A DNA stretch of 64,000 nucleotides. Origin: Candidatus Poribacteria bacterium (GTDB lineage: Bacteria; Poribacteria; WGA-4E; WGA-3G). Under the pieces are notes generated by a model. The model worked only from the letters and a program-made list of their open reading frames with translations. It was not told where the DNA came from and ran no database searches. A program made the position numbers and the translations under genes. Numbering within the stretch: the first letter of the stretch is position 1; each line of letters begins with the position of its first letter. Shown piece by piece: positions 31,289 to 57,496 of this stretch. The stretch lies in assembly GCA_022822085.1 (NCBI GenBank), contig JAJECK010000015.1:25782-89781 (forward strand). The letters run 5' to 3'.

Positions 31289-31362
31289 GATTGTGCATAT
31301 TGTAGCACATTCATCCTTGATTGTGCATATTATAGCACATTCATCCTTGATTGTGCATATAA
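31289..31362. repeat. Tandem direct repeat, 30-bp unit x ~2.5 (gattgtgcatattgtagcacattcatcctt)
   Basis: Exact tandem copies lie immediately upstream of the selenoprotein-3 start. The unit shares the cttccagattgtgca motif with the composite repeat element at 24040. Confidence 0.7.
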
Positions 31363-37235: not shown

Positions 37236-37514
37236 AGTTATTACAGAATTCCATAAGCAGTTAGTTATAGGTAAAGTATGAAAGAACTAATCAGTCAGAA
37301 AAATTTAAGGACATTGATAGATATACCAGAACCATGATACAATTATCAATTATTAACAGTTGCTATACGTAACGAAATAATGCCTTAAATCAAATAACAT
37401 TATGTTCAAATTCTCATGAACCAGATTTCATGCATAGATTCTTTGAGTATTATTGAAGAAATGTAAGCAAAATCCTATAGTGATTTTGACTTATTATAAT
37501 AAGTCAAAATCTTA

Positions 37515-38168
37515 TTGAAGACCTTCATGAACATAAGAGGACTGTACTACATCACACATATTGACAACTTGTCATCTATTTTAAAGAGAGGAATCTTATG
37601 TCATGAAAGAATTGATGCTCTACAAATTCAGAACACGCCAATCTATGATATTGATCTTGTTAATAGACGGAAGGAAAGAAACACTCCGGATGGCAAGAAT
37701 CTCTGGCATTATGTAAACCTATTTTTTCAACCTCGTAACTCAATGCTCTATGGAGTTATAAAGTCAAATGGCATGAAGAACATCGCGGTGTTGGGAATAT
37801 CCAGAAATGTGTTGGACAGACAAGGAATCTTCATAACCAATGGAATTGCATGGAAAAGTTGTACTCAAATTTATCGAAAATCAATGGGAATGCAGTTCCT
37901 TGAGAAACAACAGGAAATACTCCAAAATGACGATTGGATTGACTGGCTCCATTCATCTAAAGTTAAAAATCAACTAATGGCTGAATGTTTGGTTCCTAAA
38001 CAAGTTGAGACAGAGTATATAAGAAAATTTATTGTTGCAGATAAGAGTGTAGCAGATTCAATAAAATGTAACCTTTCCAATGATAATATTCAGAAATTAG
38101 TTGTTGCAGCTAATAACGAAAACAACATATTCACTCCATTCAGCAAAAAAACTGTGATTTCAGCCTAA
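37515..38168 (+). CDS. DarT-like DNA ADP-ribosyltransferase (DUF4433)
   Basis: The N-terminus LYYITHIDNLSSILKRGIL matches the DarT/DUF4433 signature. A conserved ...MAECLVP... block (putative catalytic Glu) is present. It is 217 aa. Confidence 0.6.
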   Translation: MKTFMNIRGLYYITHIDNLSSILKRGILCHERIDALQIQNTPIYDIDLVNRRKERNTPDGKNLWHYVNLFFQPRNSMLYGVIKSNGMKNIAVLGISRNVLDRQGIFITNGIAWKSCTQIYRKSMGMQFLEKQQEILQNDDWIDWLHSSKVKNQLMAECLVPKQVETEYIRKFIVADKSVADSIKCNLSNDNIQKLVVAANNENNIFTPFSKKTVISA

Positions 38169-38239
38169 TACGGAACATATATGTCATAAGTAGGTACCGA
38201 ATGTTTATAATGACAAAATAACGTGATAAAAAATACAAT

Positions 38240-39451
38240 ATGAAGGGTCGTACAATGCAGAATAATAGTCTTTACTATATTACTCATTTAGACAACTTAC
38301 AATCAATTTTTGCAAACGGGATTCTATCCTTTGATAGATTGAAGTCAGAAAATAGAAATGTCATCTCAATATTTAAGGGAAAGACTAAGGCAAAGGATGA
38401 TATTAGTCTTAGATCCTCAATCGTTCCACAATTTTGCAAAGACAATTTATTGAGTTACGTCAGTCTCTATTTTCAACCACGTAACCCATTGTTGTATCGC
38501 GCTATTCTGGAAATTGGTCTCGAAAATCTTGTCATTCTTGAAGTTGCAAACACAGTCCTTAGTAACCCTGGAGTAGTCATTACCGATGGCAAATCCACTG
38601 AAGAGCTAACACAGTTCTATCCATGTCCTCAGGGTTTAAAAAGAATTAAGCAGTTGGACAAAACAATTCGGAGCGATTGGTGGAAAAAATGTGACGGATC
38701 AAAACGACAAATCATGGCAGAATGTTTAGTACCGGAGTCTGTCATTCCTGAGTACATTCGTTCAATTATCATGGCAGACGAAATAGAGACTTTACTTGGA
38801 AAGATAATGTTAGATAATATTAAATTACCCATTGTTTGTCAACCTGAGAAATTCTTCCAACCAAAACGGAGGATTGCTGTAAGTGAAAATATTACACTCA
38901 TTGATGGTGGTGATATGTTTTTCTCTGAGATGCAGACATTTACAATAACAGTCAACCTTCAAGGAATAATGGGTAAAGGTTTGGCTTTACGTGCTAGAGA
39001 ACAATTTTCTGACGTTTATGTTGAATATGAGAAAGCATGTAGAACTAAGAAAATCACTGCTGATCGTCCTTACATTTACAAGCGCGAGGAATCCGTTCTC
39101 CATGAGTTAGTGGATATAGAACCATACCGTAACAAGATTAGGACTCCCTACAGATGGTTTCTGCTTTTTGCAACAAAACGACATTGGAAAACAAACTCAC
39201 GTATTGAGGATATTGAGAATGGTTTGAAATGGGTACAGGAATACGCCAAAACGGAAGGTATGCGATCACTTGCCATGCCTGCTCTAGGTTGTGCTTTAGG
39301 AGGCTTAAATTGGAAAGATGTCGCACCTTTGATGTGCAAATATCTTGATGTAATTGGAATACCTATTGAGATCTATCTTCCCCGAGAATACCCAATTGAA
39401 TCTAGATATCTATCAGAATCACATTTATTTGCACATCAGGCAGTTAGTTAG
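38240..39451 (+). CDS. Fusion protein: N-terminal DarT-like (DUF4433) domain + C-terminal macrodomain (DarG-like ADP-ribose glycohydrolase)
   Basis: The N-terminus LYYITHLDNLQSIFANGIL and ...IMAECLVPESVIPEYI parallel the upstream gene. The C-terminal half has macrodomain motifs: NLQGIMGKGLALRAREQF, ATKRHWKTNSRIEDIENGL and AMPALGCALGGLNWKDVAPLM. Confidence 0.6.
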   Translation: MKGRTMQNNSLYYITHLDNLQSIFANGILSFDRLKSENRNVISIFKGKTKAKDDISLRSSIVPQFCKDNLLSYVSLYFQPRNPLLYRAILEIGLENLVILEVANTVLSNPGVVITDGKSTEELTQFYPCPQGLKRIKQLDKTIRSDWWKKCDGSKRQIMAECLVPESVIPEYIRSIIMADEIETLLGKIMLDNIKLPIVCQPEKFFQPKRRIAVSENITLIDGGDMFFSEMQTFTITVNLQGIMGKGLALRAREQFSDVYVEYEKACRTKKITADRPYIYKREESVLHELVDIEPYRNKIRTPYRWFLLFATKRHWKTNSRIEDIENGLKWVQEYAKTEGMRSLAMPALGCALGGLNWKDVAPLMCKYLDVIGIPIEIYLPREYPIESRYLSESHLFAHQAVS

Positions 39452-39686: not shown

Positions 39687-41078
39687 ATGCCAGTAGTAAT
39701 TCCCCGCCTAATAGTAGAGGTGTTTCAACACACCAATTTTCGTGGTAGAATGGGGTATGTATTAGAACCTGTTCCGCACACCGGACATATAGGTTTTCAA
39801 GACAATATCTCTTCACTTAGAGTTTATAAAGGACCAAACTTTTCTGGTAGTCCCAATTACAAAGTAATCTTACATCAACATGTCAACTATAAAGGGAAAA
39901 AACTCCCACTCGGTCCCGGTTTTTACCCTAATTTACACGATGTAGCATTCAATTTTGCTGATAGAGTATCATCCATAAGTTTCGGTTCAACAATTGATGT
40001 CGTCGGACCTGAATGGGGCACTATTCCGATGATTGTGGATTGCTATGAACACGTTGAATTTAAAGGCAAGAAAATCACAATCCTACGTGATATTGCAAAC
40101 CTACGAACACCTCAAGGTGGTACTTGGTTTGAAGATAGAATCTCGTCAATACGCATCTTCAAAGGTCCTAACTTTCCACCGGATGGTGCAGAAGTTGTAT
40201 TCTATGAACATCCTGATTTTGAAGGGGCAAAGTTATCTATACGAATGGAGCCTTCCGAATTCAAAAAAGAATTTCCCAACCTTCATTTACTTCCACAAAG
40301 TTTCGGAGATTCAATATCCGCTATAAAGATTGAAGGATGGGCATCGTCAGGTGAGTTCTCAGAAATGGTGTTTGAAGACGAATTTATTGGAAACGATATG
40401 CGACCAGAATGGAAATGGGTAGACCCGCAGGGCGGAGGCGGTTGGACAGAACGACAAGGGTATTTGGAAATGCGTACTGACCCGGGTCAAGATTTATGGC
40501 ACGGCCCAAATGGGCGCGACGGAGATATGACGGCACCCAGGCTCCTCATGGAAGTATCTGAGGACTTTTCTATTGAAACACGGATGCGTATCTCACCACA
40601 ATTGAGGGAACACGGTGGATTAATAGTATGGAAAAATGAAAATCAGTTCGTCCGATTAGAAAAGACATCCGGACCCCATGCATTTCGGGGTGATGTCCGT
40701 TTTGAAAGACATGTAAATAGACGTTTCCATCTCGTTGGACGTGGCGGCATGCGGAATGTCCGGGAACTTTTCCTACGGTTAGAAAGACGTGGAAATCAAT
40801 TCTCTTCTTTTGCAAGCCAAGATGGAATCCATTGGAAAGGTGTTGGCATCACACGGGTTGCAATGGGACCGAGAGTACAAGTCGGTTTGCATGCACTCTG
40901 TCCCGGCAACATACCGCCGACAATGACACGTTTCGATTATTTCCGTATCTTCAAACGTAAAGGTGAAGCATCACAATATGTATCCATTTTTGCTGAACAA
41001 CCTGATGAACAGTCCGATGCTGAAACTGAACGTGAACGTGCAGATGATCGTCGTCGTGCTATGCGTGACTTAACGTAG
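39687..41078 (+). CDS. Beta/gamma-crystallin-repeat + DUF1349-like (ConA-like jelly-roll) domain protein
   Basis: Four Greek-key-like units are present (VEVFQHTNFRG...ISSLRV; VILHQHVNYKG...VSSISF; CYEHVEFKG...ISSIRIF; VVFYEHPDFEG...ISAIKI). A C-terminal region (WKWVDPQGGGGWTERQGYLEMRTDPGQDLWHGPN..APRLL) resembles the DUF1349/ConA-like fold. The acidic tail is low complexity. There is no signal peptide. Confidence 0.4.
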   Translation: MPVVIPRLIVEVFQHTNFRGRMGYVLEPVPHTGHIGFQDNISSLRVYKGPNFSGSPNYKVILHQHVNYKGKKLPLGPGFYPNLHDVAFNFADRVSSISFGSTIDVVGPEWGTIPMIVDCYEHVEFKGKKITILRDIANLRTPQGGTWFEDRISSIRIFKGPNFPPDGAEVVFYEHPDFEGAKLSIRMEPSEFKKEFPNLHLLPQSFGDSISAIKIEGWASSGEFSEMVFEDEFIGNDMRPEWKWVDPQGGGGWTERQGYLEMRTDPGQDLWHGPNGRDGDMTAPRLLMEVSEDFSIETRMRISPQLREHGGLIVWKNENQFVRLEKTSGPHAFRGDVRFERHVNRRFHLVGRGGMRNVRELFLRLERRGNQFSSFASQDGIHWKGVGITRVAMGPRVQVGLHALCPGNIPPTMTRFDYFRIFKRKGEASQYVSIFAEQPDEQSDAETERERADDRRRAMRDLT

Positions 41079-51612: not shown

Positions 51613-51699
51613 AATAGAGAATCAACAAGTGAGTAGGCATTATAAATTAGCAAGATGTTGCTATTTTCGTGAATTATAGTAAAAACTACAATTACCTGG

Positions 51700-51940
51700 A
51701 CAGTGGCGAGGTTAGGAAACCTCGCCAGCGTGAATGTGCAAGGACCTGGACAGTGGCGAGGTTAGGAAACCTCGCCAGCGTGAGTGTGCTGGCGAGGTTA
51801 GGAAGAAATCAACGGTATGAATCATGGAGCATGCCATACGCGCATGCTTCTTTAGGCATTCCCCGCCTCGCCAGCGAGCGTGTGCAATTACCTGGACAGT
51901 GGCGAGGTTAGGAAACCTCGCCAGCGTTATGGTGTGGGGA
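51700..51940. repeat. Cluster of palindromic hairpin repeats (TGGCGAGGTTAGGAAACCTCGCCA core). The 41-bp unit occurs three times with an embedded related element.
   Basis: The unit acctggacagtggcgaggttaggaaacctcgccagcgtgartgtgca is at 51703, 51744 and 51888. An inserted segment (ctggcgaggttaggaagaaatcaacgg...gcattccccgcctcgccagc) is also at 14290-14350. Each unit has a 10-bp perfect stem and a 4-nt loop. Confidence 0.7.
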
Positions 51941-56970: not shown

Positions 56971-57428
56971 GTTCGGAAACACCTTCCCGTTTGAAGGGAA
57001 TTGAAACTTGACTACTCCGTCGTCTCCCGGTCCACCAACTGCTACTGTTCGGAAACACCTTCCCGTTTGAAGGGAATTGAAACAGGTCGAAAGTAATGAT
57101 CAGTTCGTCGTCATCGGTTAGGACGTTCGGAAACACCTTCCCGTTTGAAGGGAATTGAAACATAATGCCTTTTGAAGATTTTGTTGATGAAGATTTTGAG
57201 TTCGGAAACACTTTCCGTTTGAAGGGAATTGAAACAAAAAAAGGGTGGAAGATTGGAAGGATTCTGAAAGTCCTTACTGTTTGAAGGGAACCGAAGCAAA
57301 AAGGGTGGAAGGGTGGAAGATTAGAAGGAGTTCGGAAACCCCTTACTGTTTGAAGGGAATTGCAACTCTTCCAATCTTCCATCCTTCTTTCGTTCTGAAA
57401 GTCCATACTGTTTGAAGGGAACCGAAAC
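56971..57428 (+). CRISPR. CRISPR array: 37-bp repeat GTTCGGAAACACCTTCCCGTTTGAAGGGAATTGAAAC, four well-conserved plus three degenerate repeats
   Basis: Repeats are at 56971-57007, 57047-57083, 57125-57161 and 57199-57234 (the last has a 1-nt deletion), with unique spacers of 39, 41 and 37 bp. Degenerate repeats follow at ~57262-57297, 57330-57366 and ~57391-57428. The repeat ends in ATTGAAAC, the typical Cas6-type 8-nt 5' handle. It contains the internal palindrome cccgtttgaaggg. No cas genes lie within the window. Confidence 0.8.
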
Positions 57429-57496
57429 TCTTCCACCCTTCCACCCTTCTTCCACTGTCAGTTCAAAGTTTTTCCACAATAATAAGAGGCGGCTCT

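What the first reader, a model, noticed from the sequence alone, without database searches (positions are those of the whole stretch)
37515..39451. DarT-like toxin gene followed by a DarT-like::macrodomain fusion gene, an atypical DarTG-like arrangement
Both genes open with the DUF4433/DarT signature (LYYITH[IL]DNL.SI...GIL) and share the ...IMAECLVP... block that should contain the catalytic Glu. The second gene adds a C-terminal macrodomain with GKG...LR and G-C-x-x-G-G motifs, like the DarG antitoxin. Canonical DarTG has DarT followed by DarG, where the macro domain is N-terminal. Here an apparently intact ADP-ribosyltransferase domain is fused in cis to its eraser and preceded by a standalone copy. 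This could be a self-neutralising toxin/antitoxin or a defence module. It sits in accessory context next to the repeat elements and a beta/gamma-crystallin protein.
Basis: partly seen in the sequence, partly recalled or inferred. Interest (0 to 1): 0.75.

Follow-up and report, generated by a model that had tools for sequence, protein, structure and literature searches.

The report
Extra DarT toxin beside DarT–macrodomain fusion
Two adjacent genes in an uncultured sponge-associated bacterium (Poribacteria) encode a DNA ADP-ribosylating toxin and a second copy of that toxin fused to the enzyme that removes the modification; the fusion is a known, structurally solved type, but the added free-standing toxin copy is a lineage-specific variant I found no description of.

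Summary
Gene 2 (38240/38255..39451) is an N-terminal DarT domain fused to a C-terminal DarG/TARG1-type macrodomain. Both DarT copies keep the catalytic Glu and NAD-site His, and the macrodomain keeps its catalytic Lys.

The fusion itself is not new. It aligns end to end with PDB 7OMU, "Thermosipho africanus DarTG" (E=9e-97), and has over 1,600 homologues. Solo fusions are the common form in many phyla.

The distinctive part is the standalone DarT (S) directly upstream of the fusion (F). S was seen only in Poribacteria-type contigs and was followed by F in every locus inspected. It is polymorphic at two syntenic loci. It forms one clade (95% bootstrap) that groups with the fusion DarT domains. 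One genome carries an S/F recombinant.

S and the paired fused domains have diverged faster than solo fusions, in substrate-contacting regions. The module also diverges faster than its flanks, and related copies lie in defence islands.

Best reading: a DarTG2-type toxin–antitoxin or defence module with a free toxin and a self-neutralised toxin–eraser fusion that supplies the antitoxin in trans. The mechanism is inferred, not shown.

The parts
37453..37481 (+). Promoter-like site (TTGAAG-17-TATAGT) upstream of gene 1
   Evidence: Consensus scan, 9 of 12 matches. The number of such sites in the region is no higher than in shuffles, so this is weak evidence.
37482..37511 (.). Perfect 30-bp palindrome GATTTTGACTTATTA|TAATAAGTCAAAATC, ending 15 nt before the ATG of gene 1. 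It is a candidate operator or 5'-UTR hairpin.
   Evidence: It is unique in the window: 0 expected by chance, and it is the only perfect 15+15 palindrome. It is not conserved upstream of the orthologous gene in L001, L005, L006, L007 or L010, so it is not a defining part of the module.
37527..38168 (+). Standalone DarT paralogue 'S', 213 aa. The catalytic Glu E153 is at 37983-37985 and the invariant loop Arg R48 is at 37668-37670.
   Evidence: Pfam DarT E=3.9e-39. PDB 7OMU DarT domain E=1e-37. AF2 model pLDDT 88, with top fold hits 7OMU (TM 0.80), Mtb DarT and Thermus DarT. Identical to P0121. In 35 orthologues H11 is at least 90% conserved, and R48, Y62, F66, Q68-P69-R70-N71 and M151-A152-E153-C154-L155 are invariant.
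38169..38254 (+). S-F intergenic spacer, with a promoter-like site at 38210-38239 and AAGGG at 38243-38247 ahead of ATG 38255
   Evidence: The S-F spacer is 61-250 nt in nine loci.
38240..38854 (+). Gene 2 ('F'), N-terminal DarT domain, aa 1-205. Key residues are His16, loop Arg58 and catalytic Glu161 (38720-38722). Relative to S and to solo fusions there is a Lys-rich 6-aa insertion (KGKTKAKDD region, aa 47-55) and a W-to-L change at aa 71.
   Evidence: Pfam DarT E=1.7e-26. Alignments. The Glu is kept in 99% and the His in 97% of 117 fusion homologues.
38852..38887 (+). Conserved inter-domain linker (FFQPKRR..., aa 205-216)
   Evidence: FFQP is 97-99% conserved in fusions. The equivalent in 7OMU is FFFLPNRE.
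38888..39451 (+). Gene 2 ('F'), C-terminal DarG/TARG1-type macrodomain with a short tail and the stop codon. Key features are GIMGKG (aa 242-247), catalytic Lys313 in ATKRHW (39176-39178) and LGCALGGL (aa 349-356).
   Evidence: PADLOC DarG 5.9e-41 and NCBIfam antitoxin_DarG 1.1e-39, matching model positions 5-156 only. PDB DarG macrodomains 5M31 and 5M3I, E=2e-18 and 4e-16. Lys313 aligns with the first Lys of DarG PTKKHW and is invariant in 117 fusions. Fold hits are 7OMU, 5M3E and TARG1.

Best explanation
This is a DarTG2-class (macrodomain-associated) reversible DNA ADP-ribosylation module in a two-gene variant.

Gene 2 (F) belongs to the known DarT::macrodomain fusion family (Thermosipho africanus DarTG type). 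It carries an ssDNA ADP-ribosyltransferase domain covalently linked to the DarG-type glycohydrolase that erases the mark. It has no canonical DarG C-terminal toxin-binding domain.

Gene 1 (S) is a free-standing DarT that arose within Poribacteria from the transferase domain of such a fusion.

Proposed working:
- S is a separable toxin or effector that ADP-ribosylates ssDNA.
- The macrodomain of F neutralises it in trans by removing the adducts (enzymatic, type-IV-like antitoxin).
- The same macrodomain also holds F's own, still catalytically equipped, transferase domain in check in cis.
- S and the fused domain differ in their DNA-contacting elements, so they probably have different target preferences.
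- By its genomic behaviour the module is a toxin-antitoxin or anti-phage defence cassette.

Shown here: domain identities, retention of catalytic residues, dependence of S on F in gene order, origin of S among the fusion-type domains, accelerated divergence, and defence-island contexts.

Inferred: enzymatic activities, trans-neutralisation, different specificities, and a defence role.
For: Identity:
- Profile and structure matches for both genes.
- g2 aligns to 7OMU over residues 10-394, E=9e-97, 44.7% identity.
- The family is closer to DarT2 (Thermus 7OMV, E=1e-14) than to DarT1 (8BAQ, E=2e-6, N-terminus only).

Catalytic equipment:
- Glu of MAECLVP: S 100%, F 99%. ITH His: 99% and 97%.
- Macrodomain Lys313, GxMGKG and LGxxxGGL are invariant.

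S depends on F, but F does not depend on S:
- F follows S in the window and in L001-L007, L010, L018, L023, L025, L027 and L028.
- Solo F occurs at loci syntenic with S+F loci: L019 against L018 (flanks about 80% nt identical) and L011 against L010.
- Solo fusions dominate elsewhere: 37 clear fusions plus 3 same-frame overlapping cases among 52 metagenome loci, with one S+F locus.

Origin of S:
- S is monophyletic in 95.5% of bootstraps.
- S groups with the Poribacterial fused domains in 58% of bootstraps. It falls outside all fusions in only 4.5%.
- L009 carries a hybrid gene. Its first ~70 alignment columns are 93-95% identical to an S gene and the rest is 95-100% identical to clade-A fusions. 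This is the expected product of recombination between tandem paralogues.

Divergence after duplication:
- Identity to distant solo fusions is S 0.39, paired clades A 0.38 and B 0.40, and solo clade C 0.47.
- S has Ile/Leu where fusions and Mtb DarT have Asn and Thermus DarT has the thymine-contacting His119.
- S has a WISW insertion and lacks the DGSKR motif, which is invariant in fusions, just before the catalytic Glu (role of His119 from PMC11281641).

No tight S:F co-divergence:
- The clade A/B label of the partner costs 7-8 steps on the S tree (random 11), against 1 on the fused-domain tree and 2-3 on the macrodomain tree.
- This fits generic enzymatic neutralisation better than a co-evolving protein-protein interface.

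Defence-like behaviour:
- Neighbours in related loci are type III and type ISP restriction-modification genes, an AAA_35 ATPase with a weak sub-threshold PD-(D/E)XK match, HNH-WYL and IetS.
- Between the window and syntenic L005, flank proteins are 88-95% identical but S is 58% and F 68%.
- G+C is 0.343 for the islet against 0.429 for the flanks.
Against: - No activity was or could be measured.
- The register of the catalytic Arg (Thermus R51) in g2's remodelled loop is ambiguous. A single Arg58 sits next to a 6-aa insertion, so F's transferase domain might be impaired or altered.
- Both DarT copies score below NCBIfam's equivalog cut-off (88 and 70 against 150). The macrodomain part scores below the DarG cut-off (137 against 250).
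- DarG macrodomains are known for thymidine-linked ADP-ribose. If S has changed base specificity, the macrodomain might not reverse its product.
- In this window the neighbours are metabolic genes, not defence genes.
- The pairing statistics for 39 cluster pairs rest on a proxy (identical longest-contig length). Every case checked directly agreed.
- The trees are neighbour-joining on about 196 columns, and the deep branching among the four Poribacterial clades is unresolved.
Confidence: 0.6

Rival explanations
1. The DarT domain of F in paired systems is a pseudo-enzyme. It has become the antitoxin's targeting or toxin-binding module. It would bind S directly, or compete for the same ssDNA sites and position the macrodomain there, and so functionally replace the missing DarG C-terminal domain.
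For: - The canonical DarG C-terminal DarT-binding domain is absent.
- The fused domain of g2's clade has a remodelled loop around the catalytic Arg: a 6-aa Lys-rich insertion and the W-to-L change.
- Paired fused domains evolve faster than solo ones.
- S has a very conserved but low-confidence C-terminal tail, NIFTPF, that could be a docking motif.
Against: - The catalytic Glu is kept in 99% and the NAD-site His in 97% of fusions. The FQPRN, TDG, WW and DGSKR motifs are invariant or nearly so in paired clades A and B, which is not expected of a dead domain.
- Clade B paired fusions keep the ancestral loop length and the Trp.
- S phylogeny does not track the partner's fused-domain type, which argues against a specific co-evolving S:F interface.
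- The L009 hybrid shows that S and F halves are interchangeable within one fold.
Confidence: 0.15
2. S and F are two independently acting, self-sufficient units that merely sit together. F is a complete cis-autoinhibited fused toxin-antitoxin (CapRel-like logic) triggered by a phage factor. S is controlled by something else, or is a non-toxic DNA-modifying enzyme with a housekeeping or regulatory role, as proposed for M. tuberculosis DarT at oriC.
For: - Solo F is clearly viable and widespread.
- The fused TA precedent is cited in 10.1101/2023.12.14.571748.
- S and F differ in DNA-contacting elements.
- S trees are discordant with F type.
Against: - S was never seen without F immediately downstream on the same strand, 61-250 nt away, in any locus inspected.
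- No other candidate antitoxin is conserved next to S, and neighbours differ between locus types.
Confidence: 0.15
3. S is a decaying remnant of a partial tandem duplication with no function of its own.
For: - S groups with the fusion-type DarT domains.
- S is gained or lost at syntenic loci.
- S recombines with F.
Against: - About 110 distinct 90%-identity clusters of full-length S exist (about 205-220 aa), with 34 invariant positions including the catalytic Glu and loop Arg and a conserved C-terminal tail.
- Mean pairwise identity is about 62%, with no truncation pattern.
- The AF2 model is confident, pLDDT 88.
Confidence: 0.03

Closest known systems
Thermosipho africanus DarTG fusion protein (PDB 7OMU, released 2021; from memory, deposited with Schuller et al., Nature 2021, a paper I could not open)
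   Same: Same single-chain architecture as gene 2: N-terminal DarT, a conserved FF-x-P linker, then a C-terminal DarG-type macrodomain. The full-length alignment gives E=9e-97 and 44.7% identity. The fold match is TM 0.68-0.71. The catalytic Glu position is the one mutated to Ala in the crystal.
   Different: All distant fusions inspected are solo. The genomic context of the T. africanus gene itself was not available to me. In the window, a separate DarT paralogue precedes the fusion. Also, g2's DarT domain carries a 6-aa Lys-rich insertion and a W-to-L change that 7OMU lacks.
Canonical DarTG2 toxin-antitoxin / anti-phage system (Thermus, M. tuberculosis, EPEC; DarT + DarG)
   Same: A DarT-family transferase with the catalytic Glu, followed on the same strand by a TARG1-like macrodomain with the catalytic Lys. 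It is often found beside restriction-modification genes (PMC5179494). Gene order is toxin first.
   Different: DarG has an N-terminal macrodomain plus a C-terminal DarT-binding domain. Here the macrodomain is C-terminal to a second DarT domain and the DarT-binding domain is absent. NCBIfam equivalog cut-offs are not reached. There are two transferase domains per eraser.
DarTG1 (DarT1 + NADAR; guanosine ADP-ribosylation)
   Same: The same DarT fold (8BAQ, TM 0.62) and the same toxin/eraser logic (PMC11543638).
   Different: The eraser here is a macrodomain, not NADAR. Sequence similarity to DarT1 is limited to the N-terminal NAD-binding motif.
Fused toxin-antitoxin defence proteins such as CapRel (analogy of logic only)
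   Same: Toxin and antitoxin domains lie in one polypeptide, a design in which a phage factor can release the toxin (as summarised in 10.1101/2023.12.14.571748).
   Different: The folds and chemistry are unrelated. No trigger is known here, and an extra free toxin gene is present.

Membership tests
DarT (Pfam PF14487 / DUF4433 ssDNA ADP-ribosyltransferase) | Profile match above the curated threshold | tested here: met
   g1 scores 134.9 bits and the g2 N-terminal domain 93.7 bits, against a cut-off of 22.5.
DarT (Pfam PF14487 / DUF4433 ssDNA ADP-ribosyltransferase) | Catalytic Glu equivalent to Thermus E160 and NAD-site His of the N-terminal ITH motif | tested here: met
   g1 has E153/H11 (ATG numbering) and g2 has E161/H16. 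The Glu aligns with the E-to-A position of 7OMV and 7OMU. Conservation is 97-100% in both groups.
DarT (Pfam PF14487 / DUF4433 ssDNA ADP-ribosyltransferase) | Loop Arg equivalent to Thermus R51 (proton abstraction from thymine N3, per PMC11281641) | tested here: inconclusive
   g1 R48 is invariant (98-100%) and aligns with an Arg of the Thermus ERRNR and Mtb LRRHK segments. The exact register differs by 1-2 residues between alignments. g2 has one Arg (R58) next to a 6-aa insertion, and the register is ambiguous.
DarT (Pfam PF14487 / DUF4433 ssDNA ADP-ribosyltransferase) | DarT fold | tested here: met
   AF2 model of g1 (pLDDT 88): 7OMU TM 0.80, 7YK3 0.69, 7OMV 0.70. AF2 model of g2 (pLDDT 69): 7OMU over 390 columns.
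DarT (Pfam PF14487 / DUF4433 ssDNA ADP-ribosyltransferase) | NAD-dependent ADP-ribosylation of thymidine in ssDNA; toxicity | not testable with these tools
   Requires biochemistry and expression assays.
NCBIfam toxin_DarT equivalog (NF048013) | Score at or above the equivalog cut-off of 150 bits | tested here: not met
   88.3 bits (g1) and 69.9 bits (g2). These are divergent subfamily members, not equivalogs of the canonical toxin.
DarG antitoxin (NCBIfam NF048014; canonical type II/IV antitoxin) | TARG1-like macrodomain with catalytic Lys (DarG K80) and Gly-rich ADP-ribose-binding loops | tested here: met
   g2 K313 aligns with the first Lys of PTKKHW in 5M31 and 5M3I. GxMGKG and LGxxxGGL are present and invariant in 117 homologues.
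DarG antitoxin (NCBIfam NF048014; canonical type II/IV antitoxin) | C-terminal DarT-binding domain, macrodomain at the N-terminus, equivalog score at or above 250 | tested here: not met
   The match covers model positions 5-156 of 338 only and scores 136.7 against 250. In g2 the macrodomain is C-terminal and the protein ends about 15 residues after it.
DarT::macrodomain fusion family (T. africanus DarTG, PDB 7OMU) | Single polypeptide with DarT, linker and macrodomain, homologous over the full length | tested here: met
   g2 residues 10-394 align to 7OMU 25-401, E=9e-97, 44.7% identity. Foldseek E=5e-35, TM 0.68/0.71. More than 1,670 homologues have PF14487+PF01661.
Anti-phage defence system DarTG (PADLOC) | DarT and DarG profile hits in adjacent genes | tested here: met
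   PADLOC DarT hits in both genes and a DarG hit in g2. The gene and domain arrangement differs from the PADLOC model, which expects separate DarT and DarG.
Anti-phage defence system DarTG (PADLOC) | Protection against phage (abortive infection) | not testable with these tools
   Only indirect evidence: defence-island neighbours in related loci and fast divergence relative to flanks.

The most novel reading that the evidence does not exclude
Adding a free-standing copy of its own transferase domain converts a cis-locked writer-eraser fusion into a true two-component system. In a solo fusion, toxin and antitoxin cannot be separated. Here the effector (S) is separable and survives loss or inhibition of the fusion. 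The fused transferase domain is then freed to diversify (types A and B, the Lys-rich loop insertion) as a sensor, decoy or second-specificity enzyme in an arms race with phages. The conserved C-terminal tail of S would mediate the S-F relationship. This would be a previously undescribed way of building a toxin-antitoxin or defence system: partial duplication of a fused TA gene.
Probability: 0.25. Interest if true: 0.7.

Novelty: new variant of a known kind. Interest (0 to 1): 0.45.

Why it matters
DarTG is one of the few systems that reversibly ADP-ribosylates DNA. It is studied as a phage defence, a growth regulator in M. tuberculosis and a genome-editing tool.

How natural DarT::macrodomain fusions work is not covered in any open paper I could find, even though one has been crystallised. 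The Poribacterial S+F pairs offer natural experiments on that question:
- presence/absence of S at syntenic loci;
- two deeply divergent fused-domain types;
- an S/F recombinant.

These could show whether neutralisation is purely enzymatic, whether two DarT paralogues have different DNA target motifs or bases, and how a fused toxin-antitoxin can be made triggerable. New DarT specificities would also be useful for DNA-modification tools.

If the proteins behave like ordinary DarT and DarG, the finding is simply a divergent DarTG2 member in an uncultured sponge symbiont.

Tried and rejected
1. Is the 30-bp palindrome upstream of gene 1 a conserved operator? It is absent upstream of the orthologues in five related loci. 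It is kept only as a local curiosity.

2. Is the conserved C-terminal tail of S (D-I-G-S-N-I-F-T-P-F) the relic of the first macrodomain strand of F (I-G-K-N-I-S-L)? MAFFT suggested this. An HMM of the tail found nothing significant at that position in fusions, and my tail extraction was partly contaminated. Not claimed.

3. Is the module on phages? No viral-contig match. Phage-record hits are macrodomain-only, apart from one unannotated 7.5-kb 'Bacteriophage sp.' record that matched 92% of g2 and was not followed up.

4. Plasmid hits are canonical DarT+DarG pairs at about 30% identity, for example on B. thuringiensis plasmids. They are not this arrangement.

5. Literature on the fusion or the pair: seven searches and several full-text look-ups found no open paper describing a DarT + DarT::macro pair or discussing the T. 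africanus fusion. The Nature 2021 paper and LeRoux 2022 are not held.

6. A first bootstrap script timed out. It was redone with a faster distance calculation.

8. Rfam, tRNA and tandem-repeat scans of the window found nothing connected to the module.

9. dN/dS was not attempted. Divergence is about 60% amino-acid identity, so synonymous sites would be saturated.
Full report
**What is there**

The two ORFs exist as described.

Gene 1 is a DarT-family protein:
- Pfam PF14487, E=3.9e-39.
- PADLOC DarT, E=2.5e-33.
- PDB 7OMU DarT domain, E=1e-37.

Its public gene call (P0121, 100% identical, 213 aa) and about 110 orthologous clusters start at the ATG at 37527, not at the TTG at 37515.

Gene 2 has an N-terminal DarT domain (E=1.7e-26) and a C-terminal macrodomain. 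The macrodomain matches DarG models only over their macrodomain part: PADLOC DarG 5.9e-41, and NCBIfam antitoxin_DarG model positions 5-156 of 338. ATG 38255 is an alternative start, preceded by AAGGG.

An AlphaFold model of gene 1 (pLDDT 88) matches:
- the DarT half of 7OMU (TM 0.80),
- M. tuberculosis DarT and Thermus DarT (TM about 0.70),
- E. coli DarT1 (TM 0.62).

A weaker model of gene 2 (pLDDT 69) matches 7OMU over 390 columns, then DarG and TARG1 macrodomains.

**Catalytic residues**

A profile alignment to the crystallised Thermus DarT places the Glu of MAECLVP on E160. The construct reads Q-A-A there, and SEQRES numbering is literature numbering +1. The 7OMU construct likewise reads MAACLVP. 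In g1 this is E153 (ATG numbering) and in g2 it is E161.

| Feature | Standalone copies (S) | Fusions (F) |
|---|---|---|
| Catalytic Glu | 100% of ~110 | 99% of ~117 |
| His of the ITH motif | 99% | 97% |

An invariant Arg in the preceding loop (g1 R48) aligns with the Arg cluster that contains Thermus R51. The register is uncertain by one or two residues. In g2 a single Arg58 follows a 6-residue Lys-rich insertion, so equivalence is probable but not proven.

In the macrodomain, Lys313 (ATKRHW) aligns with the first Lys of PTKKHW in the DarG macrodomains. From memory this is the catalytic K80, offset by the expression tag in the PDB numbering. Lys313 and both Gly-rich loops are invariant in 117 homologues.

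By sequence, then, all three catalytic domains look competent.

**The fusion is a known kind**

- Gene 2 aligns end to end with PDB 7OMU, titled "Thermosipho africanus DarTG in complex with ADP-ribose", released June 2021. The match is E=9e-97 and 44.7% identity.
- More than 1,670 proteins with the same two Pfam domains were found.
- Solo fusions occur in Nitrospirales, Chloroflexota, Bdellovibrionales and Planctomycetota genomes.
- Among 52 metagenome loci from sediments, sludge and other habitats, 37 are clear fusions and 3 more are same-frame overlapping cases. A few are split into two genes. Only one carries the tandem arrangement.
- Canonical two-gene DarT+DarG pairs, for example on B. 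thuringiensis plasmids, are only about 30% identical.

**The standalone copy is the distinctive feature**

The nearest relatives of both genes are annotated Candidatus Poribacteria.

In those genomes a ~210-aa DarT (S) lies 61-250 nt upstream of the fusion (F) on the same strand. This holds for the window and for L001-L007, L010, L018, L023, L025, L027 and L028. Thirty-nine further cluster pairs share a contig by a length proxy. Three S clusters that the proxy left unpaired all proved to have F downstream.

The converse does not hold:
- L019 carries a solo fusion at a locus syntenic with the S+F locus L018. Flanks are about 80% identical at the nucleotide level.
- L011 is a solo counterpart of L010.

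**Origin and evolution of S**

With Thermus and M. tuberculosis DarT as outgroups:
- S sequences form one clade (95.5% of 200 bootstraps).
- S groups with the Poribacterial fused domains in 58% of bootstraps.
- S falls outside all fusion-type domains in only 4.5%.

S therefore most likely derives from the transferase domain of a fusion.

The fused domains of Poribacteria split into three well-supported types:
- Type A includes g2. It has the loop insertion and a W-to-L change.
- Type B.
- Type C has the ancestral-looking loop and was solo in all cases seen.

Type C is the slowest evolving. Its identity to distant fusions is 0.47, against 0.38-0.40 for S, A and B. Both copies therefore accelerated where the gene is duplicated.

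S differs systematically from all fused domains in regions that contact DNA in Thermus DarT:
- It has Ile/Leu where fusions and Mtb DarT have Asn and Thermus has His119. His119 is a thymine contact according to PMC11281641.
- It has a W-I-S-W insertion.
- It lacks the DGSKR motif, invariant in fusions, in front of the catalytic Glu.

Among paired systems, mean identity by partner type is as follows:

| Comparison | S | Macrodomain | Fused DarT domain |
|---|---|---|---|
| A-A | 0.62 | 0.80 | 0.63 |
| A-B | 0.61 | 0.78 | 0.47 |
| B-B | 0.66 | 0.83 | 0.71 |

S and the macrodomain barely distinguish A-type from B-type partners. The fused DarT domain does. The partner's A/B label needs 7-8 changes on the S tree, against 1 on the fused-domain tree.

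One complete Poribacteria chromosome (L009) carries a single hybrid gene. Its first ~70 alignment columns are 93-95% identical to an S gene. The remainder is 95-100% identical to type-A fusions. The switch lies at the shared NLFFQPRN motif. This looks like a collapse of the tandem pair by homologous recombination.

**Context**

In the window the pair lies between genes for Gfo/Idh/MocA oxidoreductases, sugar-phosphate isomerase/epimerase-like proteins, a PD40/oligogalacturonate-lyase-like protein, a beta/gamma-crystallin-DUF1349 protein and a LamG protein.

The same arrangement exists in another Poribacteria chromosome (L005). There the flanking proteins are 88-95% identical but S is only 58% and F 68% identical. 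The islet has 34.3% G+C against 42.9% in the flanking genes.

Elsewhere the module sits next to:
- type III or type ISP restriction-modification genes,
- an AAA_35 ATPase with a weak, sub-threshold PD-(D/E)XK match,
- an HNH-WYL protein,
- in a Bdellovibrionales solo fusion, an IetS-like subtilase.

Lower G+C, different contexts and faster divergence than the neighbours are what one expects of a defence or addiction cassette.

**How it most likely works**

Shown:
- a free DarT and a DarT-eraser fusion are co-oriented and always together;
- all catalytic motifs are retained;
- S depends on F but not the reverse.

Inferred:
- S is a toxin that ADP-ribosylates ssDNA. Thymidine is the most likely base, given the DarT2/macrodomain affiliation (PMC11543638).
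- F's macrodomain removes the adducts in trans and so acts as the antitoxin.
- F's own transferase domain is kept harmless in cis.
- The canonical second layer of control, DarG's C-terminal DarT-binding domain (described in 10.1101/2023.12.14.571748), is missing.
- The lack of S-F co-divergence favours enzymatic over steric neutralisation.
- A solo fusion cannot separate toxin from antitoxin. A free S could persist if F is lost or inhibited. That may be the advantage of the duplication, but it is speculation.

The main rival is that the fused domain has become a non-catalytic targeting or binding module. Near-perfect retention of the catalytic Glu, His and the core motifs disfavours this, but it is not excluded. 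The Arg loop of type A is remodelled, and S has a conserved, probably disordered C-terminal tail (NIFTPF, pLDDT about 58) that could be a docking motif.

**Novelty and verdict**

The fusion is a known, crystallised architecture. The part I could not find described is the conserved "DarT + DarT::macro" pair, apparently confined to Poribacteria. I found no description of it in the searchable literature. Two key papers could not be opened.

I rate it a new variant of a known kind, of moderate interest. It is not a new enzymatic principle. It is a tidy natural system for asking how fused writer-eraser modules are controlled and whether DarT paralogues have diverged in DNA target.

Noticed in passing
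window 37482-37511: A perfect 30-bp palindrome (GATTTTGACTTATTA|TAATAAGTCAAAATC) lies immediately after a promoter-like site and 15 nt before the ATG of gene 1. It is the only perfect palindrome of this size in the 64-kb window, and it is absent from the orthologous upstream regions of five related loci.
   Followed up: partly
L009 4004-5179 (OZ241845.1, Poribacteria chromosome): A single hybrid gene. The N-terminal ~70 alignment columns are 93-95% identical to a standalone DarT, and the rest is 95-100% identical to clade-A DarT::macro fusions. The breakpoint is at the shared NLFFQPRN motif. It is an apparent recombinational collapse of an S+F tandem.
   Followed up: yes
L018 vs L019; L010 vs L011: Presence/absence polymorphism of the standalone DarT at syntenic loci in related genomes. 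The flanks of L018 and L019 are about 80% identical at the nucleotide level.
   Followed up: yes
L018 1667-4056, L019 2343-4829, L023 1-2006, L025/L027 upstream genes: A 536-aa AAA_35/AAA_16 ATPase recurs directly upstream of the DarT module in Poribacteria. It has a weak C-terminal PD-(D/E)XK match (below the Pfam cut-off) and faint LmuA/PDC-S hits. In L018, L019 and L023 it is followed by a 253-aa HNH-WYL protein, which L025 and L027 lack. In L018 and L019 a type ISP restriction enzyme lies next to it. This may be a separate, undescribed defence gene pair.
   Followed up: partly
window 38124-38141 (g1 residues 200-205, NIFTPF) and orthologues: The C-terminal tail of the standalone DarT (consensus D-I-G-S-N-I-F-T-P-F) is conserved at over 90% at I-F-T-P, yet it is predicted with low confidence. 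It may be a short interaction or degradation motif. The suggested homology to the first macrodomain strand of the fusion was not statistically supported.
   Followed up: partly
L068, L069, L071 (3001-3510 and 3678-4205): Relatives in sediment metagenomes have the DarT and macrodomain parts as two separate genes in different frames, 168 nt apart. These are split versions of the fusion.
   Followed up: no
P0231, P0233 (database proteins): Two 'standalone-length' DarT proteins cluster with the fused-domain clades B and C rather than with the S clade. They may be truncated or frameshifted fusions.
   Followed up: no
window 39687-41078: A 463-aa protein combines two beta/gamma-crystallin repeats with a DUF1349/GH43_C2 concanavalin-like domain. 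It is conserved at 92% in the syntenic Poribacteria chromosome and is not related to the DarT module.
   Followed up: no
window 31289-31360, 51694-51789, 57330-57451: Short tandem repeats with periods of 30, 50 and 62 nt and about 2 copies each, elsewhere in the window. None is adjacent to the module.
   Followed up: no
phage records H16-H30: Many E. coli, Erwinia and Pseudomonas phages encode macrodomain-only homologues of the fusion's eraser (about 31% identity). This is consistent with known phage anti-DarT counter-defence. One unannotated 7.5-kb 'Bacteriophage sp.' record (MT837167.1) matches 92% of the fusion.
   Followed up: no
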